This document shows positions 8,859 through 55,027 of a stretch of 64,000 nt of DNA, one piece after another. The stretch is taken from IMG/VR virus record IMGVR_UViG_3300020036_004254. One strand, given 5' to 3'. The notes beneath the pieces are model-generated. The model was not told where the DNA came from, made no database searches, and saw only the letters and a program-made list of their open reading frames with translations. Numbering within the stretch: position 1 is the stretch's first letter; every line of letters begins with the position of its first letter. The translations under genes and the position numbers were made by a program. Source of the DNA: a virus (lineage: Duplodnaviria; Caudoviricetes).

Positions 8859-9181
8859 TGAAGCTCTACGCGCTAGTGACCATTACCAATAACAAACAAA
8901 AACTTGATGTGGATGGTCACTTTTATAGCCACTGGGATTCGCGGTGTGTTGGGATTTACGAACATTTGCAAAATGCATTGTTTGATGTGGAACAAAACAC
9001 ATTTGACATCCATGAAGAGGGGGAGTATCCCTTTGCAGTAGTGGAACCCCTAGAGTCAGACGTTGTGTATGGGTTGGGTAAGAGTGAAGATAAACAGATT
9101 TGGTTTGAGTGGAAAAATGGTGGTTATTGCCGCTGTGAAACCCCAAAAAAGTTTATTTCGATTTGTTCTTTCTGGGGTTAA
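8858..9181 (+). CDS. hypothetical protein
   Basis: coupled ORF (TAATG overlap). Confidence 0.65.
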   Translation: MKLYALVTITNNKQKLDVDGHFYSHWDSRCVGIYEHLQNALFDVEQNTFDIHEEGEYPFAVVEPLESDVVYGLGKSEDKQIWFEWKNGGYCRCETPKKFISICSFWG

Positions 9182-16660: not shown

Positions 16661-17068
16661 ATGGCCATTCAGTGGGTGGAACAACGTGGGGAAACGGATT
16701 GTGTGATTGCCTGTCTTGCAATGGTGACTGGGTTGCCGTATGATGTTGTTCTTGACGAGTTCTCGGCATATTGGGATATCTACCACGAGGAAGGGGTTGG
16801 GGATAACGCTTTCTATCAGTACCTTTCTGAAAAGGGATATCTTGTTCAAACTTTTAAGCGGGTGTACGAACCCACACAACACCCAAGAACACCGTGGCCA
16901 CCCGCACCATTCGCCCCTGTGCATGTCCTTGGGGTAGATTACTTGGGTGACGAACACGGAATTGTCATGGACGCCGACGGGATAGTGTTTGACCCGTACA
17001 ATGAGAAAAAGATTGGTGTCTACGATTACGAAACTGTATATGAAATTGTTGGCATCTGGAAAAAGTGA
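16661..17068 (+). CDS. peptidase C39-like cysteine protease fold
   Basis: Q....DC..ACLAM, H..V, FDP. Confidence 0.65.
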   Translation: MAIQWVEQRGETDCVIACLAMVTGLPYDVVLDEFSAYWDIYHEEGVGDNAFYQYLSEKGYLVQTFKRVYEPTQHPRTPWPPAPFAPVHVLGVDYLGDEHGIVMDADGIVFDPYNEKKIGVYDYETVYEIVGIWKK

Positions 17069-17119
17069 AAACGTAAACACAAACGAAAGTGAAAACGTAA
17101 ATACAAACGTTGAAAAGAG

Positions 17120-27270: not shown

Positions 27271-27727
27271 GCTTCACCTGTACACTCCCCCAAGCCAAAC
27301 GGTAAACCCTGCGGAAAAACCATCAATGGCATGACCGGACTGATGGAACTGAACAATCTCCGCAAACACATCAATCGGCACACCCATCTGGTGGTCAATA
27401 CCGACGCCCTCACCGCACGAGTAATGATGGAAGACGGGGAAGTTCCGCCGTACACCATTATTCCCTAACCCAAACACAGGACACCCCATGCACATTACCC
27501 GCCATACCCCAGCCTTCGTCCCCCCTCCGTCCACCAACACCATTGATGGAATCACCGACGACGAGTTGTCCGCACTCCTTGCGCTGATTGGCCGTACCAC
27601 GTGTGGTCCCCTGACTCGTCTGTACGATAGGATTAAAGACCACATGGACGCTCATCAGGTTGAGCATAAGTATATTGTTCCGGGTGGTGTTATTCCCATC
27701 AACCATCGTAAGTAGAGGACACCACAA

Positions 27728-27743
27728 TGTTTCACGTGGAACA
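27728..27743. promoter_or_regulatory. parS site
   Basis: TGTTTCACGTGGAACA, 1 mismatch to TGTTTCACGTGAAACA. Confidence 0.8.
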
Positions 27744-28051
27744 ATACACGCAACGGGCCAAAATCAACGGAAAAAATACGTTGCTCTTTCGTTCTGTTGT
27801 CTTCAGCAAAAAGACCCACATGTTCGTTGACGATACGTGTCTGTACGACACAACGGAAGAGGCCGAGCGAGAGGGAAAGATTCTGGTGAATCTGTACACC
27901 GAGCGAGCCAAGGCCGAGGCCGACGGTTTTCCTGTACAGAGTTCTTCGGAACTGGACAACGGACTGACCCCGGATTAATCAGGGAAACCCCGACTGACAA
28001 CGGGGTTGGTCCAGACTATCATTCGGTCATCACCTCCTGAGGAGAAACCCC

Positions 28052-28405
28052 GTGAAGGTCTTTCACCGTGATGTCTTCATGCCGGATTGCGTGTACGAGG
28101 CGGCGGCAGTGGTGCTGTGCCAGCTTGGTGGTCGCTACCGCCTCTCCACTCACGCCAAGAACCAGCGAGCCGTGCGCGAAGTGACCCTACCCCAGCCACT
28201 TCCGATTGCACAACTGGAAATCATCGAAGTCACCACCAATGGTGTTGGGGTCGAAAAGATGCTCCTGCGCTTCAAGGCGGTGACAGGAACGGATGATGTG
28301 GTCATGGGCTTGACAAACTCCGGTCTGGTCACTACTGTCTATCACAACAAGTCTGATGACCGCCACTTCACCCTGAACACTTCCAAATACGAGAGGACAA
28401 CGTGA
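28052..28405 (+). CDS. hypothetical protein
   Basis: H..V..P, S.HA and TV..N...D.H.TL...Y motifs. Confidence 0.7.
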   Translation: MKVFHRDVFMPDCVYEAAAVVLCQLGGRYRLSTHAKNQRAVREVTLPQPLPIAQLEIIEVTTNGVGVEKMLLRFKAVTGTDDVVMGLTNSGLVTTVYHNKSDDRHFTLNTSKYERTT

Positions 28406-29030
28406 AGAACGAAAAGTTTACCCTAGAGAAGTTCTACGACCTGCTCCCTATCGTAGCCGACCGGAAATGGACCATCTTTAGCGATGGCGGCATTCGTGAC
28501 GAAAACCAACGGTGCCCGATTTGTTCTTTGGTCAATGCAATTGACGATGACATCCTGTATGTGGCTTTTGCTGAGGAAGCACTGGACGCTCTTGGGATGG
28601 ACTACTCCCACAAAGTGACGGACAACATCATGATGGCCGCTGATATCAATACTCGGAGCAAGATTCGCGCCAAGATGATTGCCATCCTCAAGCCCACGGT
28701 GGTTCTGTGAAGAACGAAAAGTTTACCCTAGAGAAGTTCTACGACCTGCTCCCCATCGTGGACGACCGGAAATGGACCATTAGAAAGAATGGCACCCTCC
28801 GTGACGAGTATAATCGGTGCCCGATTTGTTCTTTGGTCAATGCACTTGACCCGGACATTCTGCACGAGATTTTCGCCCGAGAAGCACTGGACAAACTTGG
28901 TGTAGATTTCAACGAAAACGTGATTAAAAGTGTCATGTCTGCCGCCGACTGGGAACTCAAGAGTCGGATTCGCTCCAAGATGATTGCCATCCTCAAGCCC
29001 TCCCATCTTCCTTCCACCTACCGTCTCTAA
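28402..29030 (+). repeat. tandem gene duplication (28402..28710 and 28707..29030)
   Basis: near-identical 5' DNA and proteins (MKNEKFTLEKFYDLLPIV...RCPICSLVNA...KMIAILKP). Confidence 0.9.
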
Positions 29031-29282
29031 ACTATGTTCATTGTCATTGAAATGGCCGACGTAGAACTCCTGTCCGTCCGGGCGTTCCACCAGCGAGCCG
29101 ACGCCAATGCCTGCTTTGAATCCTGTGCAGAGGAGAACGGTGTGAGCGAATGCCTCGACCTTGACCTCGAAATCGCCACCACGCTCAGGCTCGCCGGGGA
29201 CCACGTGTATTCTGTGCAGTTGATTTCCCGTGAGGTTCAGGGAAACCCCGACTGACAACCCCAGCCCCATCGACTAACGTTA

Positions 29283-29463
29283 TGGGGTGACGACGGCAAC
29301 GAAGGATACCTGATGTTGTGAGGCGAAAGCTTCGGCGTCACGTAGGCGTGTCTGATGATTTTAGGGATGAAAGACTCCCACAGGGCAACGTGGCAGACGG
29401 CAGGGTACGCCCGAGCCTCACCACGCTCCCGGAATCGGCATCCGGGCAGACACATTCACCCCA
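29283..29463 (+). ncRNA. putative ~180-nt structured RNA/leader
   Basis: box promoter at 29239; TGGGGTGA/TCACCCCA and GTGTCTG/CAGACAC closures; several hairpins. Confidence 0.55.
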
Positions 29464-29477
29464 TGAAAGGAGACACC

Positions 29478-29786
29478 ATGAAAGAAGCTGTGGCGTGGAA
29501 ACGGTTGGCCGAATGGTTTGGTGCCGACCAGAATCGAGAGTTCATCTGCAATGTGCTTCGTCATCCTTTTATTCATAGGGTGGAATTTCTCGACACGAAG
29601 ATGGCGGAGACAATGTTTGGCCGAATTTACGCACATCAGGCATCATCCGATTTTTCTGAGGGAAGCACATTGGATGTGACCGACGAGCGTAATGGAACGC
29701 TATGGCACAATAAGAAATCCTCTGATGCCCGTGTGATGTTCTGCCTGTTCATGGCAATGGAATGCCAAGAGGAGACAACCCCGTGA
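29478..29786 (+). CDS. hypothetical protein, family C
   Basis: EA.AW..LA.W.G...RV.FCL.MA.EC shared with 31649. Confidence 0.7.
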   Translation: MKEAVAWKRLAEWFGADQNREFICNVLRHPFIHRVEFLDTKMAETMFGRIYAHQASSDFSEGSTLDVTDERNGTLWHNKKSSDARVMFCLFMAMECQEETTP

Positions 29787-30272
29787 TTGCCATTTATCTT
29801 GTGGTGTTTGGAACACTTGCTATTGCTTCTATCGTTGGGTTGGTTGGGACCATGGTAGAAGGAGCGGACTTTGGTTACGAAGCGTTTTGGGCTATTTTCC
29901 TCTGGCCAATGGCGGTGTACAGAATGATTCGGGGAAAGCCCAAAAAGAAATTCACCGTTCATGTGAATACCTTTCATGCCATGGAAGCCAAATGGGTCAA
30001 AGGTGTTCTCGAAAAAGCCAATCTCTTGGTGGAAACCGGAATCGCCCCAGCCGACGCCGTCTGGTCCGTTATTTCCGACCAACACCAACACACCACCCTG
30101 ATGTTGGCCGACGGCAACGGACCCAAGTTCACCCCCAAATCCCCAGAAGAACTGTACAAAATGGTGACCAAGACTACGTTCACCGAGTACGTGGACGACG
30201 AGTACATGTATAACAACCTCCCTTGACAAACAGCACCCCACCCCTTACCATTCTCTACGAGGAGACAACCCC

Positions 30273-30488
30273 GTGAAATACTACGTGATTCGCTTCAAAT
30301 CCTTTACCTGTGAACCCCACGAGTTCGAGTACCTTTCCAACAAGCGTGACGTAATGTGGTCGTTAGATGCGGACAAAGCCGCTCAGTTCCAGACCGCAAC
30401 CGAGGCCATGCGGTACGCCGCCAAGAATAAGCTCGACGCCTCAGATTTGGTCGAAGTGACCACCACAAAAACCTTCACCGTTATCTAA
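30273..30488 (+). CDS. hypothetical protein, family B
   Basis: YYVIR...W...A.QF.TATEA. Confidence 0.65.
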   Translation: MKYYVIRFKSFTCEPHEFEYLSNKRDVMWSLDADKAAQFQTATEAMRYAAKNKLDASDLVEVTTTKTFTVI

Positions 30489-30497
30489 GGAGATTTC

Positions 30498-30803
30498 ATG
30501 ACCATGCGGAAAGGTCGTCCAAAGAACACCCCGCAGTTCTTCCCCATCAAGCCGTCCAAGCCCACGTTTGAGGCCCGTATCGGGTTCATCCCCGCACACT
30601 CCGTCTATATTGGTCAGGACGGTGATACCTACGGACCCAGAGAATTCAGTCAATGGTTCTACGAGACTGAAAATGGACAGTTCTACTCCGAGGATTGCCT
30701 CAAGATTCTCCTGAGAGACTGCGTTCCGGATAGTATTCAGAACAATGACCTCCTGCTCAGTCTGGCCGACACCTACCGAGCCGCAACTTCAGGGAAAGCC
30801 TGA
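30498..30803 (+). CDS. hypothetical protein with N-terminal RKGRPK
   Basis: AGGAG RBS. Confidence 0.65.
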   Translation: MTMRKGRPKNTPQFFPIKPSKPTFEARIGFIPAHSVYIGQDGDTYGPREFSQWFYETENGQFYSEDCLKILLRDCVPDSIQNNDLLLSLADTYRAATSGKA

Positions 30804-30845
30804 CAGACACACCAGTCCCACCACGCTAGACTTCTTCATGTAAGG

Positions 30846-31126
30846 CACAGCACCTAACGTCTCATGCCCCTCCGTTGGTCCATACGTTGTATCGTGGCTC
30901 TACGCAACCACCGATGTTTTCCTAGGAAGCCCCTCGTGCGCTTGCGATTCGACCTCGACCCGTTTTCTGGTCTAAACGCGATGCCTCTGAACCTTAGCTC
31001 TGCTGTGATGAGAACAAACCTCGGAAACCCGTTCAGGGGCGAGAAAAGGGGTGGCAAAAAGAATGCTGAACCCATTCCAGATTGCTGTTCTCAAGGGGCG
31101 GTTGGTCATCGACGGGTGGCCAACCC
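30846..31126 (+). ncRNA. putative ~280-nt structured RNA/leader
   Basis: box promoter at 30791; CACAGCA/TGCTGTG, GCCTCTGAAC/GTTCAGGGGC, TGAGAACA/TGTTCTCA pairings; terminal hairpin. Confidence 0.45.
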
Positions 31127-31134
31127 CTCTCCTT

Positions 31135-31150
31135 TGTTCCACGTGAAACA
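31135..31150. promoter_or_regulatory. parS site
   Basis: TGTTCCACGTGAAACA, intergenic. Confidence 0.85.
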
Positions 31151-31173
31151 CTTCCCACACCGGAGAACCCACC

Positions 31174-31383
31174 ATGTACATCATCAAACGCCGTGCCAAT
31201 TACCGCTTTTACCAGCGTTCAAGCACGTTCTGCTCCACCATTGACGAGGCCAAACAGTTCGAGACTCAGCACGATGCCATCATGGAGCTTCTAACGGTCT
31301 ACGGCAAGTCCACACCCCATTTTGTTGACGAGGGCCTGAGCATCGTCAAAGTCCGGGTCAGGGTCGAAGAGATTCCCGAGTAA
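31174..31383 (+). CDS. hypothetical protein, family B
   Basis: YIIK...IDEAKQFET..DA. Confidence 0.65.
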   Translation: MYIIKRRANYRFYQRSSTFCSTIDEAKQFETQHDAIMELLTVYGKSTPHFVDEGLSIVKVRVRVEEIPE

Positions 31384-31648
31384 TGGGCTGGCACCCAAAT
31401 GACCGGGGAACCTCCCTCAACCCGTGGAACCCCAAGTCACCAAAATACCACAGAACACAACCCACCCCACGCCAAAAAACTGTCCTCAAAAGAGGACAGC
31501 AGAACTGCCCCTGTTCTCTTTCCACAAGAATGATGACCAGCCCCGGCGCACCTGAACACAATATGTGCATGGCCTGTGGAAAGAAACACGACACTTGACA
31601 AACCCGTGGTGACCGCTTAACATTCTGGTAACCCAACAGGAGAACCAC

Positions 31649-31975
31649 ATGACCGAAGCCCAAGCATGGCGAAAACTCGCAAAATGGTGCGGAACTGGAA
31701 ACCCGGAACGCCGCGCCTTCCTGTGTGACCGCCTCAGTGGACGGTTTGATGGGTCTGACTCGTATGGCCCAGACACCGCAGACCCCTTGCCAAAAGGACT
31801 CCCCCGTACCAAGATGTACGACCGTATTGCCAACCACAACCCCAGTGGTATTGAATGTCTCATCGTTGAGGATGACAAGGGTCCATTCCGCAACGCCTCC
31901 ACGGACAATCACCCCAGAGTCATCTTCTGCCTCCTCATGGCAATCGAATGCGAACTTGAGGGTTTCCCCGACTAG
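31649..31975 (+). CDS. hypothetical protein, family C
   Basis: paralog of 29478..29786. Confidence 0.7.
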   Translation: MTEAQAWRKLAKWCGTGNPERRAFLCDRLSGRFDGSDSYGPDTADPLPKGLPRTKMYDRIANHNPSGIECLIVEDDKGPFRNASTDNHPRVIFCLLMAIECELEGFPD

Positions 31976-32592
31976 CGTTTCCCAAAATCCCGTCGCACAA
32001 ATCACAATGCAAGCCGTCGTCAAAAGTCTGTACGAAACCTTCCGAAAAGAGACAACCCCGTGAAAGTTACCTCCGTCACCAAAATCCGCGAAATCGTCCT
32101 CACCCTCTCCATTGAGGAAGCCCAGAATCTCATCGACTTTAGTGATATCGTTGGCGACTCCTTGCTAAATCCCCATAATGTCTACGCAACAAAAGCAGAC
32201 AATGGACGATTCGCCCTGTACGAACTGCGTCGATTCCTCGGGTCCGCCATCCACAAAAATGCGTAACCTCTCACTCTTCCTGTTCTCCTATTACGACCAC
32301 TGGGCCTACGGCGGTTTCGAAATGAAAGAAATCGCCGTCGTCGCCAATACCGAATCGGAAGCCCTCGGAATGATTCTGGACAAATACCCAGAAACCACCC
32401 CCACCAAATGGTGTCATAACAGTGTCGATATGACACGGCCCAACATCATCGAACTGTCCGAACGCTCCTCTTGACAAACACTGGGGTATAGGTTAGTATT
32501 CATCCGAGAGCCGTGTTCCACCCCGTCAGCCGTCATCCGTATCCCCACACACGAAGCCGTTCGGTTTGTACTGGAAGCCTACAACCGGAACG

Positions 32593-32671
32593 TGTGGAGA
32601 AATAATCCCACGTGGAAACAGATAGAGTTATCCACACCAGATGTGGATAAGTCGCCGTAAAATGTGGATAA
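32593..32671. promoter_or_regulatory. DnaA-box cluster
   Basis: TTATCCACA 32628-32636; TGTGGATAA 32642-32650 and 32663-32671; 1-mismatch TGTGGAGAA at 32593. Confidence 0.8.
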
Positions 32672-32913
32672 CCTCGGGAGAAAGTCATTGGTAACCATTC
32701 GGTTACTTAACATTATCTTGAAGTATTCTCAGTGAACCATTTGGTTCAGTGTCCTAATAATGAGACACCAACTAAATCTCAAGGGGTTACGCTCCGAGAA
32801 AGATTTTTTCACCGGGATTGTTCAATCATTTCGGTGTGGTGGACGTAGATTGGAACGTTGGTGAAAACATGTGGTTAAACGTTGGGTCAACCCCTTGAGA
32901 GGAGTGGAAAACG

Positions 32914-33129
32914 GTGAAATATTTTGCGATTCGGGCGTCCGAGACGGATTGGACGGTGCCTAATCAGTACGTGGCGAGCCGTGGTCGTCCGGTGCAGTGG
33001 ACGCGGGACGTAGACGATGCGGTGCAGTTTGGCACGGCGACAGCGGCCATGAATTTTGCGGGACTTCGTGGGATTTCTGCGGCGGTGTTGGTGGAGGTGT
33101 CTCACGAGGTGGTGGTTCGGGAAATCTAG
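32914..33129 (+). CDS. hypothetical protein, family B
   Basis: KYFAIR...WT..V.DA.QF.TATAA. Confidence 0.65.
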   Translation: MKYFAIRASETDWTVPNQYVASRGRPVQWTRDVDDAVQFGTATAAMNFAGLRGISAAVLVEVSHEVVVREI

Positions 33130-34069
33130 GGGAAACCCTGACTTGCGTGGAAGCGAGCAAGCGAGTACTTTTCGTCCCATGAGACAGCCTATCTGCCCCG
33201 CCCGAGACTTTGGCACGTGTTCCTTCAGCAACAGCACGGGTCCGTCCTTGTGTGTGTTTTGTGGGACGGCCCATCCTTTCCCCCCGGAGAATTCTGTGGA
33301 AAACGAGTTGGTCAAGCCCAACATCAATCTGAACGGTTCTGACGGGATGGAGTTGGCTCGTCAGTACTACGAGGCGGCACAGGCGGTTGAGAACGCCGCA
33401 AATCTCATGGGGCGACTCGTCCACGGTCGGGACTATCAGGGGTCACCGGACGGTGCCTACGAGCGAGCCTACCAGCAGATGGTGGAGCGTCTCAAGCCCA
33501 TGATTTCTGCGTACAACGACCTGAAGGCGATTGCGGAACATTGTGTGGAGGAAGCCTGATTCAGGGAAACCCTGACTAGCGCGGGGTTATCCCGTGAGAT
33601 ATTGTTAGTTCACACCTTTCAGACAGGAGTTGTGTTATGGACGAGGTAATGTTCAATGCCAAGGAGCGAATGACGCAGGAGCTTCTGGTGGCCAACACGG
33701 GTCATTTGCTGGCCTTGGGGTGGTCGGAGAGTGCGGTGGTGCGCCATTGTGAGGCGGTGGCGACCGAGTACTTCGAGCGGTTGGAGAAGCGGGTGAGGGA
33801 GCGGGTCAAGTAGTGTCTGTGCAGAGTTGAAGCCACTGAGTAATGCTAGAGCGGCGCGTTTCCATCTTTGAGTGGAAGGAAAGGGTTTGTCGCGTACTTT
33901 AGAACCCACAGACATTACCTGTTTTCTCTTGGGGGAAAGGAATACTGGCCATTTGAATCGGAGCAAAGTCCTTTCCCCCGGAGAATCGGGGAATCCCTGA
34001 CTAGCGCGAACGTTGGACTGGTTGTAGCTTCAATCGTGTAGGGAAACACTAACCCAAACGGAGTGACCG

Positions 34070-34225
34070 ATGAGCAAGACGGCGAAGACCAAGGGCGAGA
34101 AGGCCAAGTGGATGCGTATCTCGACGGCGCGGGATTTCAAGACCTCGCACACGGCGGGGATGGTGTTCAAGGCGTCCGACCGGGACTACGTGGTGACCGC
34201 TGACGGTTCGTGGCGGCGTAAGTAA
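34070..34225 (+). CDS. small basic protein (absent from the ORF track)
   Basis: 51 aa; box promoter at 33988, GGAG RBS; Y.V..DGSWR motif shared with the C-terminus of 6210..6767. Confidence 0.6.
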   Translation: MSKTAKTKGEKAKWMRISTARDFKTSHTAGMVFKASDRDYVVTADGSWRRK

Positions 34226-34432
34226 GCGTTCTCTTGGGGTGACTGACGTGGATACACCCTGTGGCACATAGCCTGACGCGGTCACCCCTTGAGATTTGAC
34301 CAGACCTGAAAACCCCGATTTGTTTATGATGGGTGAGTAGCCGCTGGTCAAATCTTTTCAGGGAATCCCTGACTTGCCGGTTGGTGGGTCAGGGGTTACC
34401 TTTCTGGTGTACACTCCACCGAGAGCATACCG

Positions 34433-34588
34433 ATGCCCAAGTTTATTCTTTGGTCCAACAACGACCCGAACAACGCCTTCGAGGTTGAGGCAGACAACCC
34501 CAACAATGCCGCCTTTGCCGCTCTGAGCGAACTTGGCTGGTCCATGAGTGACGGCGACGAGGACGAGGACGAGGACGAGGAGGATTAG
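34433..34588 (+). CDS. small acidic protein (absent from the ORF track)
   Basis: 51 aa ending DGDEDEDEDEED; box promoter at 34360. Confidence 0.6.
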   Translation: MPKFILWSNNDPNNAFEVEADNPNNAAFAALSELGWSMSDGDEDEDEDEED

Positions 34589-34647
34589 AGAATAGGGATT
34601 TCCCCGACTTGCTTTCGGGTGGGACGGGGAGTATCCTTGTGTCAGAC

Positions 34648-34720
34648 GCCTCGGTAGCTCAGTTGGTAGAGCAAGGGACTTTTAATCCCAAGGTCGTGGG
34701 TTCGAGCCCCACCCGAGGCA
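34648..34720 (+). tRNA. tRNA-Lys(TTT)
   Basis: AGGGA-CT-TTT-AA-TCCCA; canonical D and T arms; box promoter at 34594. Confidence 0.95.
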
Positions 34721-35334
34721 CTTCCTTTTGCGGAGAATACAATGCTCAAGCTCATCTTCAACAGTCTGCTCTTGTTTCTGTTCGTGACCGTGGTGCTGGT
34801 GGTGGTGTTCTGGCTGTGCAAACATCTTCTGATTCTCTACGTGGTGTGGATGTGGGTGATGATGTAATGTTCATCGACGTTGACGACGAGCCTGTGTACA
34901 CGGTTCGGACCTCGGAGTCCAAGATTTTTGTGCAGGGGGATTCCAACCCCATGAGACGCCACGAGGCTGAGGCCACCCGAGACATGCTGAAGTGGATGGA
35001 CCCGGAATGTGTGGTGGAGATTGTTATCCTGTGAGTGCCGCCACCCGAGCCAAGTCAGCCCGAGAACGGGCAAATATTGCCGCACGGTTTATCCGTCGCG
35101 GGTCCAAGGGCAGTCGAGCGTTTGCCGACTGTTTCGAAATGGGTGACGGAGACGAGGTGGCCAAGATTCTGGTACAGAAAGCACAGACGGACAAGCGTTT
35201 GGCGAACTTCTGTGTGTACCATTCTTTCGGGACACCGGAGCAGGTTCAGGCGTTGTGTGAGGGCTTGACAAACCCGTGAGAGGGTGTTATCATTAGTTCA
35301 CACCGGGACAACGGGTATCTCACGACCCGCCCCT

Positions 35335-35405
35335 GTCAGGCAATAGCATAAACGGTAATGCGCCCCGTGAGAGGGGAGATTGGGGTTCGAATCCCCGGCT
35401 TGTCT
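35335..35405 (+). ncRNA. tRNA-like RNA with shrunken anticodon arm
   Basis: D arm GCAT/ATGC; T arm TGGGG-TTCGAAT-CCCCG; central CCCC-GTGAGA-GGGG. Confidence 0.55.
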
Positions 35406-35958
35406 TTGGTACTATCCCCAAGGGTTCGAAAAATATCGAGTTCCCGACTGGCCGAAGCGTTCTCTTGGGGTAGTCCCATTCTTTTCTCAGTACACGGGAA
35501 AGGCCCGGAAAAAATCCCGCGTCGGTACGGTTGCAACCGTGCTAATCATGTGCTATCCGTGGGTTGTCGCACATGGGCGTGAAATCGGCTGACTACCACG
35601 TGTTCTTTTCTCCGGAGGTTCCAATGGGTGGTCGCATCGAAGGTGCAGGCATGAATCTCAAGGGGGTTCCCACGGTGACGGTGGTGTTCGGTCAGTGGAA
35701 TACCGTCCATCCTGTCCACGTGGTGGGTATTTTCAACACGGAAGAGAAAGCGGTGGCTCTGGTGAAAGAGGAAGAGGCTCGCACGGAGCATCGACGACTC
35801 CGGGTCTGGCACGAGACGTTCTTCGTGCAGTAAAGTTTGTCAAGGCCCCGCCAACGGAGTTGGCAGTAGAGCAGATGGATTGGGGTTGAAAGTCTGACCC
35901 TTGACAAACCCACTCGCCCCGAGTATCTTCAGTCATCACTTCAACCACAGGAATCCTC

Positions 35959-36348
35959 ATGAAAAACGCCAAGACGGAAAAGGTCAAGAATACCCTCACC
36001 TACTATCTTGAGGACGGTACGGTTGCCGTGGTCCCGGCAAGCTGGCCCAAGGCCAAGTACATCATCAAGAATGCGTCTGGAATCTCGTTCTTCGAGGAGA
36101 ATCCGGGGTCGGATTCCCCGAATCTCCACGAAGTGGACCGCAAGGAGTTCAACGAGTTCATGGTGAACGACTTTCGTTATCGTGTGAACGGGGACAAGGT
36201 CGAGGGCAAGTATTTCCATGGTTGGGAAACGTGCGGTCTGTACGGCTCGGACGGGACCGTGTCGGAGGTCATCCGGACGATGACGGCACACAAGAGGTGG
36301 GACGAGTTGGCCAAACTGATTGCGTGTGTTCGGAATCCCACGAAGTAA
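35959..36348 (+). CDS. hypothetical protein, family A paralog
   Basis: YRVNGDKVE; W.ELA....RNPT. Confidence 0.75.
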   Translation: MKNAKTEKVKNTLTYYLEDGTVAVVPASWPKAKYIIKNASGISFFEENPGSDSPNLHEVDRKEFNEFMVNDFRYRVNGDKVEGKYFHGWETCGLYGSDGTVSEVIRTMTAHKRWDELAKLIACVRNPTK

Positions 36349-36477
36349 ACGGGTGGGTCAAGGGGTGGCCGGGAACGCTTCCCAGTAGTACAGGCAATGG
36401 CGAAAGTCTGTACCACCCCTTGACACACGCGGACTAACCACTTAACATTCTCGTATCACCCCCGAAAGAGGAATCCC

Positions 36478-36882
36478 ATGAACTATTCGACTGTGACAAC
36501 CACCAAGACCCCGACTGGTGGTCATCTTTTCCACCTGACCGACACGCTCGGAAACGAGCATCGGGTGTTCTTCGACGCCGGAATCAACGTTCCCGCGTTC
36601 GTGGTCGTTCGCACCAACGGCATGTCCTTCCTGAACGCCCCTCCGGAAAAACCGTTCAAGAACGAAAACGTCTTCCGGTTGGAGACGAAGGTGTACAAGA
36701 CGTTCAAGTGGGGAGGGGTCGCCTACCGTGTTCGTGACGGCAAGGTGGAGTACCGTATCCGTGGCGACGAGTGGGCGACCACTGGTGCCGCAGAAGACGG
36801 TGATGTGTACAAACTCATCGCACATCTGGTCAACCACGGTGAGTACATGATTCTGCGCGACTTGCTCAACGCGATGGAGTAG
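36478..36882 (+). CDS. hypothetical protein, family A paralog
   Basis: TF...G..YRV..GKVEY. Confidence 0.7.
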   Translation: MNYSTVTTTKTPTGGHLFHLTDTLGNEHRVFFDAGINVPAFVVVRTNGMSFLNAPPEKPFKNENVFRLETKVYKTFKWGGVAYRVRDGKVEYRIRGDEWATTGAAEDGDVYKLIAHLVNHGEYMILRDLLNAME

Positions 36883-38310
36883 GGGTTTCCCCGACTTGCG
36901 GAAGACCTCTCACGAGGTTACGTTTCTCTTCACACCACTCACCCGGAGCAACACCATGCTGACCTGCACCCATCAGGGACACTCCTCCCAGTCCACCCAA
37001 CTCAAGGTTCAGGAGACAGACCGCGACAAGACGATGTTGGCGTTCTATCCCGACAACGCCGGAATGCACACCATCTGGCTCAACGCCGAGAGCGTGTTGG
37101 TCTTGGCCCGGAAGCTGGAAGCGTGGGCAATCAAGCGCGGGGCCAACCTCCCAAAATCTTCTGTGGAAGGAAGCCTGTAAAGGCTCACCGTTCAGGAGAA
37201 CTCTAATGCGTCGATAACCGTTGAATCTCAAGGGGTTGAGGAACGTTCGCCCCTTGAGATTCGCAGGACGTAAACGCAAACGTCGAATCAAACGTTGCAC
37301 CAAACGTTGCACCTCGGAGGATTGATGTCTACGCTGTGGCGGTTGCTGATGGTTTCCCTGTTCTACTTCCTCGTGGTGTTCTTCCCGGTTGACCCGTGGC
37401 AGAGGTTGGTGTCGGCGTCCGCTGGGATGATTTTGCTCAACGAACTGTTCGAACCGCGCAAGAAGAGGTGAAAACGGTGGCGTGTTCGTTGGAGTAAACG
37501 GAAACGTGTTCAACGGAGTAAACGTCATCAATCTTTTGGGGCAAAGATATTGGATAAGATTTTTTGCAGAGCATTGGACAGTTGTCTTTTGCCCCAAGAG
37601 AATGCCCCTTGACAGACTCGTTTCAAGGGGTTATCTTTTGTGCATACCCTCTGGAGATTCCAAGCGATGAAGGACACCAAAGAGTACTGGAAAGAAAAGG
37701 CCGTTTATCTTGCGGCAATGGTGGCCTTGGTTCCTGTGCAAGATAGAATCTTGCCCGACGTTGAGGCTGGCGAGCTTGATTTTGCCACTGATATCTTGGC
37801 GCAATATCCGCCCCTTGACAAACCCCGGAAGCAAGGTTAACGTTCGGGTAACCCCAAGAGGACGGCACAATGCGCGGAAAAACCACGTTGTTCGTTGACC
37901 AGTACGGAAGCAAGGTCTACGCCAAGACTGTCAAGGAACTGGTCACCGTCGCCGGGGGCGGCAAGGTTTCCAAGATGTATCAGGACGGAATGGGCGGGTT
38001 GAGCTATCACGTGGGCTACGTGGTGGGAAAGCGTTGGTTCACGGCATTCGTTCCTTTCTCCGCAAAGGTCTAGAGGACACTATGGCCAAGAAAGTTGCCA
38101 CTGAAGGAATGCACCACTCCCGTGCGTGGCGTCTCGGCTGGGAAGATGCCGCAAACGGAATGCCCCGTGGCCACTCGGAGAACGGGTTCCGCACCGTGCG
38201 CGGTGATTCCTATTCAGAAATGATGTACGACGACGGGTACAACGTCGGGTCGTGTCGGTAAGGGTTTCCCCGACTTGCGGAAATGATTAGTTCCCGCTAG
38301 TATTCATCCC

Positions 38311-39027
38311 ATGAAGACTCCCAGCGGCGTCATCCTCTACACGGGTCCGTCCCAATTGACGGGCAAGCCCATCGTTGTGATTGCCACTGGACTGAACAAG
38401 TCCAGCCGCAATGCCAAGACGGGCGGCATGGTCCAAACCTACATTCTTTGCGCCGATGTCAATCCCATTGAGGCTCTCAACGGGGCGGATACGGCGATTT
38501 TCGGGGGTTGCATTCACCGCAAGAATCCTGTCACGGGGGTTCGCACCTGTTACGTTCGGATTGACACGGGTCCGAACGGCGTGTACAAGGCTTGGAAGCG
38601 CGGCGTTTATCCTGTGCTGACGGATTGGGCCGTCTTCACGGGCAAGGCCATCCGGTTTGGCACCTACGGTGACCCTGCCGCCGTCCCGCTTCACGTGTGG
38701 CAAAATCTTGCCGCCTACGCTGGGACGACGACGGGCTATACGCACCAATGGCGAGCCAAGAAGTTTGCGGGGTTGGCATCGTTCTGCCAAGCCTCTGCCG
38801 AGACTGCCGATGATGTCATTCGCGCAAACGCCAAGGGGTTTGGCACCTTCCGGGTTCTACCCGTGATGGAATCTGTTCCCGCAAATGCCATGCACTGCCC
38901 CGCATCGGCGGAAATGGGTAAGGTTACTACGTGCATCGAATGCGGGGCGTGTGACGGATTCAGCAAGCGCAACGTGGCTATCTTTGCACACGGCGCAACC
39001 GGACACAAGTACACGGGCGCACGTTAA
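38311..39027 (+). CDS. Cys-rich conserved phage protein (possible degenerate radical-SAM-like fold)
   Basis: S.N.KTG, CYV, R.G.YGDP, YTH, AS, CP, TC..C..C, HG motifs. Confidence 0.7.
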   Translation: MKTPSGVILYTGPSQLTGKPIVVIATGLNKSSRNAKTGGMVQTYILCADVNPIEALNGADTAIFGGCIHRKNPVTGVRTCYVRIDTGPNGVYKAWKRGVYPVLTDWAVFTGKAIRFGTYGDPAAVPLHVWQNLAAYAGTTTGYTHQWRAKKFAGLASFCQASAETADDVIRANAKGFGTFRVLPVMESVPANAMHCPASAEMGKVTTCIECGACDGFSKRNVAIFAHGATGHKYTGAR

Positions 39028-39313
39028 GGGAATCTCTGACTTGCGCTAACCCTTTTCACGGGATACCTTTCCCTCATGAAAACTTTCTCCATCACGTTCA
39101 ACGGGCGACCCATTGGGTCGATTGGTATTTGCTCTGTCTTTACGGTGGAAGTCACCGCAAGAGACATTTGGGATGCCTGTTCCCGTCTGTACGAAACACA
39201 CGAACATATCCGGTTGGTGACACACAGTGAAGTACAGAATAAGGGAAACCCCGACTAGCGTTCCGCTTTTCAGGGGTTTACCTTTCGTTCACACCCTCTA
39301 GGGAGAATCACCG

Positions 39314-39847
39314 ATGTCCAGCTTGCTCCAAAATCTTGCGGGGATGAAGGGCGCGAAGTTCGCCTCTTTCGTCTACACCGCCAAGCCGTCAGGCCCCCGG
39401 CTCACTGAGGAAAAGGCGCGGCACGTGCTTATCCTCGGTGCGTCCACCAAATCTTTGTACGAACGGGATTTGGAAGTGTTGGCGGAAATCGCGCCGACGC
39501 TCAAGGGGCTGGAAGCCGACGCCGCAGAAATCATCGCGGAATCCCGGCGCGTGTCGCTCGCCGTCGGCATCGGCCACAATCCGGCGTACACCGGGGAAGA
39601 TGCCTACAGCGCAACCAACATCCCCGGCGTCAAGGTCCACAACGTCACGGGAGAAATCCACGTAAACGGATTGGTCGTGCGGAAGGATGTCATCACGGAA
39701 GCGACCTACCGCAAGGTCAACAGCAAGCCTGAGACGCTGGCACGTAAGGCCGTGGAGAACATGCTCCCGTCGTCCAAGTTCCGCCAGTTCAAGCTGTCCG
39801 GTATCACCGTCGCCAAGCTCAACGGCGAGACAATCGAAATGGAATAA
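39314..39847 (+). CDS. hypothetical protein
   Basis: box promoter at 39242; GGAG RBS; 177 aa. Confidence 0.75.
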   Translation: MSSLLQNLAGMKGAKFASFVYTAKPSGPRLTEEKARHVLILGASTKSLYERDLEVLAEIAPTLKGLEADAAEIIAESRRVSLAVGIGHNPAYTGEDAYSATNIPGVKVHNVTGEIHVNGLVVRKDVITEATYRKVNSKPETLARKAVENMLPSSKFRQFKLSGITVAKLNGETIEME

Positions 39848-40187
39848 GTCTCAGGGGGTTGTGGACTCGCCCCTTGAGCGTCTTTTTTGTTCAAAACGTA
39901 AACCCAAACGTTGCGCCAAACGCAAAGCGAAACGTTGCCACTCGGTATTTTTGCGCTATGTGCAACTCCTCTGACACTCGCACGGCATCCCCGGAAGCGC
40001 AAGGGTTGTCGTTCCCCCTTGAGCAAACAGAATCCGCCGAACGGCGAGCAACCAAGCGTCGGCGTCTACGGCTCATGCTCTTGCACCTTGGCCACTGGAT
40101 TCTTTCCAGTGCAGTAACCAACATGAGCGAAGCTCAACTAGACGCGATGCTCTTGCTCGTCCACAGTGCAGACCCGAACAAGCTGTA

Positions 40188-40260
40188 GGCTGGCACGGAA
40201 CTTGCAGGCGCACGGGCTGGCACGGAACTTGCAGGCGCACGGGCTGGCACGGTTTTTGCT
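40188..40260 (+). repeat. 27-bp tandem repeat, each unit carrying a sigma54 -24/-12 consensus
   Basis: TGGCACGGAACTTGCA at 40191 and 40218; TGGCACGGTTTTTGCT at 40245. Confidence 0.8.
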
Positions 40261-40441
40261 TCCCGTGCGTTCATCCCGACGACGGAAAAAAGTTCGGGTT
40301 CCCACTTGCGGAAATGGAATCGCCCCCTTACCCTTCCTGAAGGGCCGAAATGCCCGGCAGGGTTTTTTGACAATCGGGGGAAAAATGTTCGCCCCGAATG
40401 GGCGCGAACCATGTTCCCCCACTTTTCAGGGAGCTACAAAG

Positions 40442-41506
40442 ATGGCGCACGAACTGGAACAGAATGAAGAGGGAACGTCGTTTTTCCAAGTGGTGCGGGA
40501 AGGTGTCGCGCTTGCGTGGCACAATCTCGGCAAGTATTTCACTGCCGACGAACGGCCCAACACAACGGCGGAAGCTCTGAAGCTCTGCCGTGGTGACTTC
40601 GAAGTCGAAGTCAGGCCCCAGACTTACACCGCCTACACTTCCGACGGTGACACATACCAACGGGAAAGCACGCTGTCGGCGGCTATCGTCCGGACGGACA
40701 ACAACGTCGAAGTGGGGAGCGCGACACCGGGATATACGGTGATGCAATTCAGTGAGGCGATGCGGAACCTTGACCCGTTCATCGGGGAAGGGTTGGCGAC
40801 AATCGAGACGGCTGGCGTCTTCCGCAACGGTGACAAGGCTTTCATGCTCATGCGGTGGAATATCGAACGCTTTGGCGACCTTTGCCGGGAAGCGTTCGGG
40901 GACAGCATGCGAGCCTACGGGCTGGCCACGGCATCCCACTCTGGCCGGGACGGTATCTGTTTCTACGATACCGATGTCACCGTGGTGTGCCAGAATACGG
41001 AACGGGCCGCCGTCAATGGGTCCACCTCCAAGTTCATGGCGAAGCACTCGCGCAAGGCTGGGACGCGAGTCGTGGACGGTGTGACCAAGCTTTGGGGCGG
41101 AGTGGTCGCACAGCGTGAGGAAATCGGACGGGCAATCCTTGCCCTCCGTTCCCTGACGTTGGACGAAGCGACCTTCCGGGCAATGGTGCTGGACGTTATC
41201 GCACCACTGCCGCAAGAGTCGAAGAGCTTCGACCCGAGCGCGAAGTTCGCCAACACGATGGTCCGACGGGCAGAGGAAAAGAGGCTTACGCTGTCAAGCC
41301 TCTGGCACAACGCACCGGGACACGTTGGTGACGGGTCGGCTTGGGAAGCGTACAAAGCGGTGACGCATGCCGCCGACCATAGCGGTGTCCTTTGGTCGCC
41401 CCGGTCGCTGGAATCACGGGCCGAGGGACTGCTAGAGGGTCCGATGGTCACCGCCAAGAATGCGGTCTATAACGGACTGCTGGAACTGGCCACGGCAGGG
41501 AAGTAA
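40442..41506 (+). CDS. DUF932 (LGT_TIGR03299-like) phage/plasmid protein
   Basis: MAHE start, AWH.LG, RTD, Y...Q, ETAG....G, SH.G, VVC.NT, KH and SAW..Y.AVT..DH motifs. Confidence 0.8.
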   Translation: MAHELEQNEEGTSFFQVVREGVALAWHNLGKYFTADERPNTTAEALKLCRGDFEVEVRPQTYTAYTSDGDTYQRESTLSAAIVRTDNNVEVGSATPGYTVMQFSEAMRNLDPFIGEGLATIETAGVFRNGDKAFMLMRWNIERFGDLCREAFGDSMRAYGLATASHSGRDGICFYDTDVTVVCQNTERAAVNGSTSKFMAKHSRKAGTRVVDGVTKLWGGVVAQREEIGRAILALRSLTLDEATFRAMVLDVIAPLPQESKSFDPSAKFANTMVRRAEEKRLTLSSLWHNAPGHVGDGSAWEAYKAVTHAADHSGVLWSPRSLESRAEGLLEGPMVTAKNAVYNGLLELATAGK

Positions 41507-41511
41507 GGGAC

Positions 41512-41546
41512 AGCGGGGCAAGGCTTGGACAGCTTGCCCCGCTTTC
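41512..41546 (+). terminator. terminator-like hairpin ending the early region
   Basis: AGCGGGGCAAG/CTTGCCCCGCT followed by TT. Confidence 0.65.
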
Positions 41547-42058
41547 CTGCCTCTGGAACATAACTAGTTAGTTATGCGTGACTATTCGTTTAAAGGCGAT
41601 TTAAGGGCCTATCGCCGTTTAGGGCTATAGGGGTAGCCTAAACCCAAACGTGCATACGCTAAGTATATGTGTTTCAACAGGTTACACGCTTTGTGATAGT
41701 GCCTCTGCATACGGATTATGCAGGCTCTAATGCCCGTATAACGCAAGATTTGGCCGAATGTGTGCCTTAATGTTTTATTCGGGAATCGTTCGGTCTATAG
41801 AGTGATAGCACTTTCAGGGAAACCCTTATTGACTTTGGGGCGCGAGTGGTGTACCCGCTCAGAGAAAAGGGCTATATGACTTTATAGGAATATTCGGAAT
41901 ACCCGACCGACATGGGGGCATGGCATATGAAACGAGGTTACGATTTTCAAAAAATATTTCCCAGAATTTTTTTCCCGGGAAACCCAAATCATAAGACGCG
42001 GTGGAATACCCTTGTGTTCAGGAAGTGAATACCCTTGTGTTTGCTGATTGGCAAACAC

Positions 42059-54369: not shown

Positions 54370-54950
54370 GTCCGTTCAAGGCATATGAAATGTACATGCA
54401 TCTGAAGTTACATTTCACTTCGGATACATACGATGTACGTAAGTACCCCATGAAAAGAATGTCGGTGACCTCGTTTGAAAAGGGTACGATTAAGTTTAAA
54501 TTGTTCAAGCTGACGCAGAAATATAATGATATTCAGCTTCGGGAGTACTTTATTGCTAACTTCTTGAACGGTGATAAATACGGTGGGATGTATAATGCCA
54601 ATGCAGACGAGGTTTTATTGGATTGGCAAAAGCGCGTTCAGGGCTTGACATACCACTACAGACAGGATATATTGCATCTTCAGGAACAAGGGGTTGAAAC
54701 TCCTGATATGGCTTGGTCTGGTGACAGCCATCCCCTTCTCGCCAAGGAATATTTGGGTAAGCGCATCAATTTGGAAACCCTTGTCATCCTCGACAAACTA
54801 TTTAATTTTCGGCCCGTGGTCGATAAGCGTTTGACGGATGATTTTATGTGGAATCCGATTTCTAAGTTGATGTACAAATACGAACCATTCCTTACGTTTA
54901 ACAAGGAAGATTTTTTGGAGGCGACCAAAAGAGTCTTCGCACCCCGGTGA
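54366..54950 (+). CDS. helicase loader (T4 gp59-like)
   Basis: Y..LKLHF....YD..KY, HP.L...L...I..ETL.IL, KY.PF; lies before gp32. Confidence 0.85.
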   Translation: MSPFKAYEMYMHLKLHFTSDTYDVRKYPMKRMSVTSFEKGTIKFKLFKLTQKYNDIQLREYFIANFLNGDKYGGMYNANADEVLLDWQKRVQGLTYHYRQDILHLQEQGVETPDMAWSGDSHPLLAKEYLGKRINLETLVILDKLFNFRPVVDKRLTDDFMWNPISKLMYKYEPFLTFNKEDFLEATKRVFAPR

Positions 54951-55027
54951 GAACATCTTTTGTTATGGTTGGACCATTGTTCATACACCGTTATATACCG
55001 TTATACACCGCAAAAAAGGAGCTACAC

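What the first reader, a model, noticed from the sequence alone, without database searches (positions are those of the whole stretch)
27728..41950. Early region mimics a bacterial chromosome: a panel of host-protein binding sites (parS, DnaA, IHF-like, sigma54, other arrays)
Seen: the intergenic gaps of the early region hold two parS sites, three perfect DnaA boxes, IHF-like TCAA-N4-TTR motifs, three tandem sigma54 boxes, AAACG clusters, GCAAGAT clusters and stacked palindromes. Established: these sites belong to host ParB, DnaA, IHF and RpoN. T4-like phages carry their own replication proteins (gp59 and gp32 are here) and are not known to need them. No parB, dnaA or rpoN gene is in this window. 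Inference: a dedicated cis-acting system that recruits or titrates host DNA-binding proteins. Possible roles are stalling host replication/segregation, positioning or compacting the incoming genome, or ratcheting DNA entry (compare the DnaA boxes in the T5 injection-stop region). This is my best candidate for an undescribed system.
Basis: partly seen in the sequence, partly recalled or inferred. Interest (0 to 1): 0.85.

Follow-up and report, generated by a model that had tools for sequence, protein, structure and literature searches.

The report
Host-protein docking sites on T4-like phage
An uncultured sewage T4-like phage carries perfect docking sites for three bacterial proteins (ParB, DnaA, sigma-54 polymerase) among its early genes. 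They are real and the same site types recur in unrelated phages, but they look like separate add-ons rather than one proven system.

Summary
Partly confirmed. Three motif classes are exact and far above chance:
- two 16/16 parS sites (27728, 31135);
- three 9/9 DnaA boxes within 44 bp (32628-32671);
- three full sigma-54 -24/-12 boxes at a 27-bp period (40191-40259).

The rest does not hold as host sites. Strict IHF sites number 0. AAACG arrays are the phage clade's own conserved element. GCAAGAT lies mostly in coding sequence. The "stacked palindromes" are PeSL-like hairpin-plus-promoter cassettes.

No parB, dnaA, rpoN or activator gene was found in the window or in a 127-kb relative. None of the three site classes is conserved in relatives at 50-65% protein identity; one relative (L015) has a 1-mismatch parS. 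All three lie in a hyperplastic region.

Each site type is nevertheless a recurrent phage feature in IMG/VR:
- the DnaA-box pair occurs in at least 117 contigs (scrambled control 0), and the exact three-box geometry is found in real bacterial oriC regions;
- tandem sigma-54 boxes occur in at least 119 contigs, with 26-28 bp the favoured period;
- parS sits beside tandem sigma-54 boxes in phi29-like terminal repeats and in one other phage.

Best reading (0.45): separately acquired docking sites for host ParB, DnaA and sigma-54 polymerase, following the phi29 paradigm. A single unified system is unproven.

This scan has already reported host-type parS, sigma-54 arrays and a ParB/DnaA hub on other phage DNA.

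The parts
27728..27743 (.). parS site 1 (TGTTTCACGTGGAACA), overlapping codons 1-6 of ORF 27727-27978
   Evidence: Exact match to TGTTNCACGTGAAACA. Present in a 99.9% identical strain contig, L141.
31135..31150 (.). parS site 2, the reverse complement of site 1. It lies between a terminator-like hairpin (31094-31130) and ATG 31174.
   Evidence: (17-nt perfect inverted pair I21).
32475..32913 (+). 440-nt non-coding module downstream of early promoter 32471-32499. It is moderately AT-rich (60-68% at 32680-32760) and holds the DnaA boxes, palindromes and a degenerate AAACG array in front of GTG 32914.
   Evidence: Its right half has counterparts in G001 59480-59040 and L015 1620-1990, sharing GTGTCC-N8-GGACAC and TCTCAAGGGGTTAC.
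32628..32671 (.). Three perfect DnaA boxes: 32628-32636 (+), 32642-32650 (-) and 32663-32671 (-). This is a convergent pair with a 5-bp spacer plus a third box 12 bp further on.
   Evidence: The same pair occurs in at least 117 viral contigs against 0 for a scrambled control. The exact three-box geometry occurs in 32 bacterial genomes, including dnaA-dnaN origins.
40188..40259 (+). Tandem array of three sigma-54 -24/-12 boxes (40191, 40218, 40245) at a 27-bp period. It starts right after the stop codon of ORF 39958-40188 and lies about 180 nt upstream of the DUF932 gene.
   Evidence: A wastewater strain variant lacks 40024-40214. Relatives have other tandem arrays at this spot.
40442..41506 (+). 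DUF932 (PF06067) gene downstream of the array. It has its own conserved promoter-like block, CCACTTGCGGAAAT (about 40303-40340).
   Evidence: Pfam E = 6.8e-24. The upstream block is conserved in L002, L014, L015 and L023.
37266..37318 (+). AAACG(T) array with a 12-bp period, between a hairpin and ATG 37325. Sister arrays lie at 39894-39934 and 17062-17110. This is the phage clade's own cis-element.
   Evidence: Arrays are conserved in G001, L014, L015 and L023.
27976..28022 (+). One example of the PeSL-like cassette: hairpin TCAGGGAAACCCCGA followed by a -35/-10 pair. At least 16 hairpin copies and at least 8 TTGACA-N17-TAnnAT promoters lie in 21-42 kb, all on the + strand.
   Evidence: (families D2, D3, D5, D7, D9, D11). 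The concept comes from PMC2839356.
34648..34721 (+). tRNA-Lys(UUU) inside the region. A weak tRNA-like element lies at 35335-35405.

Best explanation
The early hyperplastic region of this virulent-looking T4-like phage holds three separate cis-elements, probably acquired at different times. Each is a maximal-affinity binding site for a host chromosome or transcription protein: parS for ParB, an oriC-type DnaA-box trio for DnaA, and a tandem -24/-12 array for sigma-54 RNA polymerase.

The most likely use follows the phi29 paradigm. The phage docks host proteins that report or act on the cell cycle and nutritional state. ParB loaded at parS would position or segregate the phage DNA. DnaA bound just downstream of an early promoter, in a conserved untranslated module, and sigma-54 polymerase parked in front of the DUF932 gene, would gate local transcription or origin-like opening.

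Shown: the sites exist, are non-random, lack a visible phage-encoded partner in the window, and belong to site classes that recur in many unrelated phages.
Inferred: host-protein binding and every functional consequence.

The remaining 'panel' members are the phage's own promoters, hairpins and operator-like arrays.
For: - Exact consensus and statistics for the three site types.
- No ParB, DnaA, RpoN or bEBP family in the window, and none of ParB_N, Sigma54_activat or Bac_DnaA in relative G001.
- The DnaA pair TTATCCACA-N5-TGTGGATAA occurs in at least 117 IMG/VR contigs against 0 for a composition-matched scramble.
- The exact three-box geometry occurs in 32 bacterial genomes. It sits in the dnaA-dnaN spacer in L411 and directly upstream of dnaN amid 14 boxes in L408.
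- Exact parS occurs in at least 119 viral contigs, 20 of them multi-copy, against 23 single-copy hits for a scramble.
- Tandem sigma-54 boxes occur in at least 119 viral contigs. The favoured period is 26-28 bp, matching the window's 27 bp, and the boxes are kept while the linkers vary.
- parS and tandem sigma-54 boxes lie side by side in the terminal repeats of phi29-like phages and in L401, as parS-3 boxes-parS.
- The third window box keeps TGGCACG and TTGC although its spacer and flank differ.
- Precedents: phi29 parS and 0A boxes (PMC2731898); CtrA sites in lytic phages (PMC9437464); T5 DnaA boxes.
Against: - None of the three site classes is conserved in relatives at 50-65% protein identity: G001, L014, L019, L023 and L142-146 lack all of them. 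L015 has only a 1-mismatch parS and DnaA-like GTGTCCACA repeats.
- The sigma-54 array occupies a spot where every relative has a different tandem repeat, so the locus may be a slippage-prone minisatellite.
- The sites lie 1.5-9 kb apart with no shared architecture.
- No activator-binding site or activator gene was identified.
- The host, and so the presence of ParB and RpoN in it, is unknown.
- About 110 kb of the genome, which appears to be about 173 kb, could not be searched for cognate proteins or further sites.
- There is no binding or expression evidence.
Confidence: 0.45

Rival explanations
1. Decoy or sponge. The sites have no positional role. Once the phage genome replicates to hundreds of copies, perfect-consensus sites soak up scarce host proteins (ParB, DnaA, sigma-54). 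That would shut down host chromosome segregation or division, re-initiation of replication, and sigma-54 stress or receptor regulons.
For: - All sites are at full consensus rather than the degenerate form usual for regulated promoters.
- They are multi-copy and tandem.
- parS #1 sits inside a start codon, an odd place for a positional element.
- Array copy number varies between strains.
- The same site types accumulate in unrelated phages.
Against: - There are only 2-3 copies per genome.
- In other phages the arrays occupy defined places, such as terminal repeats and the divergent control region next to terminase. That argues for positional roles.
- Close relatives do without them.
Confidence: 0.2
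2. Replication-origin module. The 440-nt untranslated stretch at 32475-32913 is a phage origin of the T4 oriF/oriG type, with a promoter-primed R-loop and an AT-rich unwinding region. In this lineage it has added DnaA boxes. parS nearby mimics the ori-proximal parS of chromosomes. The sigma-54 array is unrelated.
For: - A strong early promoter fires into a long untranslated AT-rich stretch.
- Five DnaA-type boxes flank it.
- The box geometry is that of real oriC regions.
- The right half of the module is conserved in G001 and L015, and L015 has a parS-like site abutting it.
Against: - Relatives keep the module without DnaA boxes.
- No DnaA-trio or 13-mer-like element was seen.
- T4-type phages load their helicase through gp59 without DnaA.
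- The skew change at 31-32 kb coincides with a replaceable cassette and possible minus-strand coding.
Confidence: 0.15
3. Passenger sequences without function in this phage. The sites rode in on cassettes shuffled between phages by PeSL-type recombination, or arose by slippage (the sigma-54 array). They are neutral here.
For: - They lie in a hyperplastic region: window 24.2-33 kb has no homologues in G001.
- There are strain-level indels and replacements around them.
- They are not conserved in relatives.
- The array locus is hypervariable in all relatives.
Against: - Three different perfect host-protein consensus sites, each multi-copy, within 12.5 kb is very unlikely without selection.
- The third sigma-54 box keeps both elements despite diverged surroundings.
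- Both parS copies are kept in a second strain.
Confidence: 0.15

Closest known systems
parS (Spo0J) sites and Spo0A boxes of virulent Bacillus phage phi29 and Nf (Meijer et al. 2005 as summarised in PMC2731898)
   Same: A lytic phage without its own ParB carries several host chromosomal-type parS sites plus binding sites for a second host DNA-binding protein. They are used to hitch the phage genome to host segregation and to sense host state.
   Different: - This is a T4-like myovirus from wastewater with an unknown host, which need not form spores.
- It has 2 parS sites rather than 5, and they are not at the genome ends.
- The companion sites are DnaA boxes and sigma-54 boxes rather than Spo0A boxes, and they do not overlap the early promoters.
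DnaA-box sets in the injection-stop (iss) region of T5-like phages (bioRxiv 10.1101/866236)
   Same: Ordered consensus DnaA boxes lie among repeats and palindromes in an untranslated early region of a lytic phage that has its own replication proteins.
   Different: T5 has eight boxes, in pairs 3 bp apart, conserved across 25 relatives, in the terminal repeat. Here there are three boxes (a convergent pair 5 bp apart plus one), they are internal, and relatives lack them. The role of the T5 boxes is itself only a hypothesis.
Bacterial oriC and DnaA-regulated box clusters
   Same: The same 9-mer and the same R-5-L-12-L geometry as in the dnaA-dnaN spacers of Binatia and Actinobacteria genomes. An AT-richer stretch lies next to it.
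   Different: Only 3-5 boxes rather than 9-16. No DnaA-trios were seen, no dnaA or dnaN gene is nearby, and the cluster sits in a phage transcript leader.
Bacterial sigma-54 (RpoN) enhancer-dependent promoters (glnAp2, pspA and nifH type)
   Same: A full YTGGCACGR-N3-TTGCW match, oriented towards a downstream gene.
   Different: Three copies at a 27-bp period. No activator site or activator gene is visible. The array lies in a hypervariable minisatellite. Tandem arrays of this kind appear to be a phage feature.
PeSL (promoter-early stem-loop) cassettes of T4-type hyperplastic regions (Arbiol et al. 2010, PMC2839356)
   Same: Repeated hairpin plus strong sigma-70-type promoter units separate small ORFan genes. 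Insertions, deletions and replacements are concentrated there.
   Different: The sequences are specific to this clade. They explain the 'stacked palindromes' and the mobility of the region, not the parS, DnaA or sigma-54 sites themselves.

Membership tests
Chromosomal parS (ParB/Spo0J site) | 16-bp near-palindrome matching TGTTNCACGTGAAACA | tested here: met
   Two 16/16 matches at 27728 and 31135. Expected by chance about 2e-5.
Chromosomal parS (ParB/Spo0J site) | Bound by a cognate ParB (the host's, since the phage has none) | tested here: inconclusive
   No ParB_N in the window ORFs or in relative G001. The host is unknown, about 110 kb of the genome is unseen, and binding cannot be tested here.
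Chromosomal parS (ParB/Spo0J site) | Conserved at the locus among relatives | tested here: not met
   Absent (up to 2 mismatches allowed) from G001, L014, L019, L023 and L142-146. L015 has one 1-mismatch site. Both sites are present only in the 99.9% identical strain contig L141.
DnaA-box cluster / oriC-like element | Clustered consensus 9-mers TTATCCACA | tested here: met
   Three perfect boxes in 44 bp plus two 1-mismatch boxes within 290 bp.
DnaA-box cluster / oriC-like element | Box geometry used in real origins | tested here: met
   The exact R-5-L-12-L pattern occurs in 32 genomes. In L411 it lies between dnaA and dnaN. In L408 it lies directly upstream of dnaN amid 14 boxes.
DnaA-box cluster / oriC-like element | Adjacent AT-rich unwinding element or DnaA-trios, and origin activity | tested here: inconclusive
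   AT content is 60-68% over 32680-32760 against about 47% in the region. No trio repeats were seen. Origin activity cannot be tested here.
Sigma-54 dependent promoter | -24 GG and -12 GC elements with exact spacing (YTGGCACGR-N3-TTGCW) | tested here: met
   Three full matches.
Sigma-54 dependent promoter | Enhancer-binding activator and its upstream sites | tested here: inconclusive
   No Sigma54_activat family in the window or in G001. No recognisable activator site was read upstream. A host activator remains possible.
Sigma-54 dependent promoter | Promoter conserved in front of orthologous genes | tested here: not met
   DUF932 orthologues in six relatives have no such box but have other tandem repeats there.
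IHF binding sites | WATCAANNNNTTR consensus, enriched | tested here: not met
   0 in the region and 9 elsewhere in the window. The loose form is not enriched relative to the rest of the window.
PeSL cassettes of T4-type phages | Repeated stem-loop plus strong sigma-70-like early promoter between small genes of a hyperplastic region | tested here: met
   At least 16 hairpin copies and at least 8 TTGACA-N17-TAnnAT sites, all on the + strand. The region is variable between strains and relatives. Promoter and terminator activity were not tested.
phi29-type exploitation of host ParB plus a state-sensing host factor | Companion host-factor sites overlap the phage's early or late promoters | tested here: not met
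   The DnaA boxes lie about 130-170 nt downstream of promoter 32471-32499. The sigma-54 boxes lie upstream of the DUF932 promoter-like block.

The most novel reading that the evidence does not exclude
parS, tandem sigma-54 boxes and oriC-type DnaA boxes together form a recurrent, so far undescribed 'host-protein docking kit' that unrelated lytic phages assemble independently. Examples are this T4-like phage, phi29-like phages (in their terminal repeats) and a siphovirus-like phage (next to its terminase genes). In this reading the parts work together. For example, silent sigma-54 polymerase closed complexes and DnaA oligomers could act as fixed roadblocks that confine or retain ParB sliding clamps loaded at parS on phage DNA. 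Alternatively the kit could be a joint decoy set.
Probability: 0.2. Interest if true: 0.85.

Novelty: new variant of a known kind. Interest (0 to 1): 0.6.

Why it matters
T4-type phages are regarded as self-sufficient for replication and transcription control. Perfect sites for ParB, DnaA and sigma-54 polymerase suggest that even these phages plug into the host's chromosome-cycle and stress or nutrient circuits. This would extend the phi29 'hitch-hiking / lytic deferment' idea to a new phage class, possibly one with Gram-negative wastewater hosts.

The side result may matter more. Tandem sigma-54 boxes and convergent DnaA-box pairs are widespread in phage contigs, and parS sits beside sigma-54 arrays in unrelated phages. 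I found no description of phage sigma-54 arrays in two literature searches. This gives a concrete, testable set of sites for ChIP and deletion work.

Tried and rejected
- **ScpB lead.** ORF 28052-28402, next to parS #1, gave a weak Pfam SMC_ScpB hit (E = 4.9e-4, below cut-off). An AlphaFold model (pLDDT 80.8) found no ScpB or winged-helix match in the PDB. The best hits were weak RelE-like folds (E about 0.1), and the profile found nothing in PDB sequences. Lead dropped.
- **Link between the sites and DUF932.** No DUF932 homologue lies near the sites in 355 viral loci with parS, DnaA pairs or sigma-54 arrays, apart from one distant case.
- **Own contig and whole genome.** These were not retrievable, so the rest of the genome could not be searched.
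- **Near and distant DNA searches against phage records.** No relatives; only a tRNA-Lys match.
- **JGI metagenome scan.** It added no new relatives.
- **Rfam at E <= 1 over 27-42.5 kb.** Only the tRNAs.
- **RNA folds of the sigma-54 array and the parS contexts.** No better than shuffles.
- **Metatranscriptome contigs.** None cover 31.1-33.2 kb or 40.19-40.44 kb. This says nothing either way.
- **Orientation of sigma-54 arrays relative to crude ORF calls in 119 loci.** 77 co-oriented against 46 anti-oriented, with a noisy gene caller. Too weak to decide between promoter and decoy.
- **Host identification.** Not achieved. The only hints are a wastewater or activated-sludge source, a permuted tmRNA and sigma-70-type early promoters.
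- **Literature searches for sigma-54 arrays or decoys in phages.** Nothing relevant found.

Full report
**What the window is.** The window comes from an uncultured T4-like phage.
- It encodes gp32 at 54947-55957 and a gp59 C-domain protein, plus PhoH, baseplate proteins, GMP reductase, 17 tRNA or tRNA-like genes and a permuted tmRNA.
- No close relative exists among deposited phages; the best gp32 identity is 48%.
- It occurs in wastewater and activated-sludge runs.
- A protein cluster that includes a window protein lists a longest contig of 172,723 bp, which is probably the genome size. The rest of the genome could not be fetched.
- The finding's region consists of small + strand ORFan genes.
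- The best relative is G001, an IMG/VR contig of 126.8 kb. It is syntenic at 55-78% protein identity but has no homologues for window 24.2-33 kb and only scattered ones up to 48 kb.
- A 99.9% identical strain contig (L141) and a wastewater assembly differ from the window by deletions, replacements and rearrangements inside the region.
- This is therefore a hyperplastic region of the kind described for T4-type phages (PMC2839356).

**The observation.**
- The two parS sites are 16/16 matches and are reverse complements of each other over 17 nt.
- The three DnaA boxes are 9/9 matches within 44 bp.
- The three sigma-54 boxes fit the long consensus YTGGCACGR-N3-TTGCW.
- Against 200 Markov shuffles and analytic expectations (2e-5, 0.06-0.08 and about 1e-3) none of these is chance.

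The other members of the 'panel' fail.
- Strict IHF sites number zero, and the loose form is less dense here than in the rest of the window.
- AAACG is not enriched overall.
- Six of the seven GCAAGAT copies are in coding sequence.
- The gaps also hold a tRNA-Lys and a tRNA-like element.

**What the other repeats are.** The intergenic gaps are dominated by the phage's own elements.
- At least eight TTGACA-N17-TAnnAT promoters are present, all on the + strand.
- At least 16 copies of the hairpin TCAGGGAAACCCTGACTWGCG abut a weak -35 element.
- Together these match the PeSL concept (PMC2839356) and account for the 'stacked palindromes'.
- The AAACG(T) arrays have a 12-bp period and lie between a hairpin and a start codon, at 37266, 39894 and 17062.
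- They recur in G001, L014, L015 and L023. They are therefore a conserved element specific to this clade, probably an operator or promoter for a phage factor, not a known host site.

**parS.**
- Site 1 overlaps the start codon of ORF 27727-27978.
- Site 2 lies between a strong terminator-like hairpin and ATG 31174.
- Relatives lack parS even with 2 mismatches allowed, except L015. L015 has TGTTCCATGTGAAACA abutting its version of the non-coding module.
- No ParB_N family was found in the window ORFs or in G001.
A composition-matched scramble hit 23 contigs, all single-copy.
- Host-type parS on a virulent phage is established for phi29, which has five sites and uses Spo0J-dependent spore entrapment (PMC2731898).

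**DnaA boxes.**
- They lie 130-170 nt downstream of early promoter 32471-32499, inside a 440-nt untranslated, moderately AT-rich stretch. Two further 1-mismatch boxes are present.
- The right half of this stretch is a conserved non-coding module. It contains GTGTCC-N8-GGACAC, TCTCAAGGGGTTAC and an AAACG array before the start codon, and it is also present in G001 and L015.
- The DnaA boxes themselves are specific to this lineage.
- The convergent pair TTATCCACA-N5-TGTGGATAA occurs in at least 117 viral contigs of very different GC content and size. A scrambled pair of the same composition occurs in none.
- The full three-box geometry occurs in 32 bacterial genomes from many phyla. In L411 it lies between dnaA and dnaN. 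In L408 it lies directly upstream of dnaN amid 14 boxes. It is also found upstream of dnaB.
- So this is a true oriC-type DnaA site arrangement.
- T5-like phages offer a precedent for ordered DnaA boxes in an early untranslated region.

**Sigma-54 boxes.**
- The array starts right after the stop codon of ORF 39958-40188 and lies about 180 nt upstream of a DUF932 gene. That gene has its own conserved promoter-like block.
- Every relative has a different tandem repeat at this same spot, with copy-number variation between strains, and none of these repeats is sigma-54-like.
- A wastewater strain lacks 40024-40214.
- The locus is thus a hypervariable minisatellite.
- Even so, the chance that a random 27-mer unit carries the full consensus is about 1e-6. 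The third box keeps both elements although its spacer and flank differ.
Arrays contain 2-11 boxes, the favoured periods are 26-28, 46 and 54-57 bp, and the boxes are conserved amid variable linkers.
- The window's array is one more member of this class.
- This scan has reported the class several times on other phages. I found no description of it in two paper searches.

**Are the sites linked?**
- Within the window there is no structural link.
- In other phages, parS and tandem sigma-54 boxes do sit together. A family of about 11-kb phi29-like podoviruses (PolB, gp16, connector and phi29-type capsid) carries 2-4 boxes followed by 1-2 parS sites in each terminal repeat.
- An unrelated terminase-bearing phage, L401, has parS-3 boxes-parS in its divergent control region.
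- Six of the 119 sigma-54-array loci contain parS, where about 0.002 parS sites would be expected by chance in that 1 Mb. Most of these loci belong to the one phi29-like lineage.
- DnaA-pair loci contain no parS.
- This is suggestive of a functional pairing of ParB and sigma-54 sites, but it is not proof.

**Verdict.**
- The core observation stands for three of the roughly seven claimed elements.
- The best reading is separate docking sites for host proteins, in the phi29 manner (confidence 0.45).
- The rivals are titration (0.2), an origin module for the DnaA part (0.15) and functionless passengers (0.15).
- The 'single dedicated system' remains the most novel reading that the evidence does not exclude (0.2).

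Noticed in passing
L182 1-310 (also L153, L168, L169, L190, L203, L204, L214, L222, L227, L234): Phi29-like podovirus contigs of about 11 kb carry 2-4 sigma-54-type boxes, TGGCACG(G/C)TTTTTG(C/T), at about 58-bp spacing in each terminal inverted repeat. These are followed by one or two parS sites 42 bp apart. Bacteroidota-type TAnnTTTG promoter elements suggest a Bacteroidota host.
   Followed up: partly
L401 3240-3390: A composite parS - three sigma-54 boxes (28-bp period) - parS lies in the divergent region between the small terminase gene and a primase-helicase arm of an unrelated phage.
   Followed up: partly
window 30836-31081: A 246-nt contig from one metatranscriptome run, at depth 179, maps here. 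The stretch is ORF-poor and lies just upstream of the strong hairpin 31094-31130 and parS #2. It may be an abundant small RNA.
   Followed up: no
window 41507-42034: A non-coding stretch of about 500 nt with lower GC content after the DUF932 gene. It is conserved at the nucleotide level (70-82%) in L014, L015 and L023, although the proteins are only 50-65% identical. It may be a structured RNA or another cis-element at the point where gene orientation changes.
   Followed up: no
window 8979-8994: A third parS-like site, TGTTTGATGTGGAACA (2 mismatches), lies inside ORF 8858-9181. About 0.03 such sites would be expected by chance in 64 kb.
   Followed up: no
window 40188 and the same spot in L002, L014, L015/L016, L019/L020 and L023: Directly after the stop codon of the gene that precedes DUF932, every relative has a different tandem repeat. 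Examples are a 16-nt CCGAACAACCGCCGAA unit with 5 copies in one contig and 2 in another, many copies of GGTGAGGCG, and CCGCTCGCCA. This is a positionally conserved hypervariable minisatellite.
   Followed up: partly
window 28402-29030: A tandem duplication of about 305 bp (77% identical) gives two paralogous small genes, 28402-28710 and 28707-29030. The long minus-strand ORF across them is probably spurious.
   Followed up: no
L026, L027, L031 and about 40 more loci: Contigs of 4-6 kb (microvirus size) keep the convergent DnaA-box pair in a very short gap immediately before a start codon (…TGTGGATAAATATG…). The pair is conserved across a large family.
   Followed up: no
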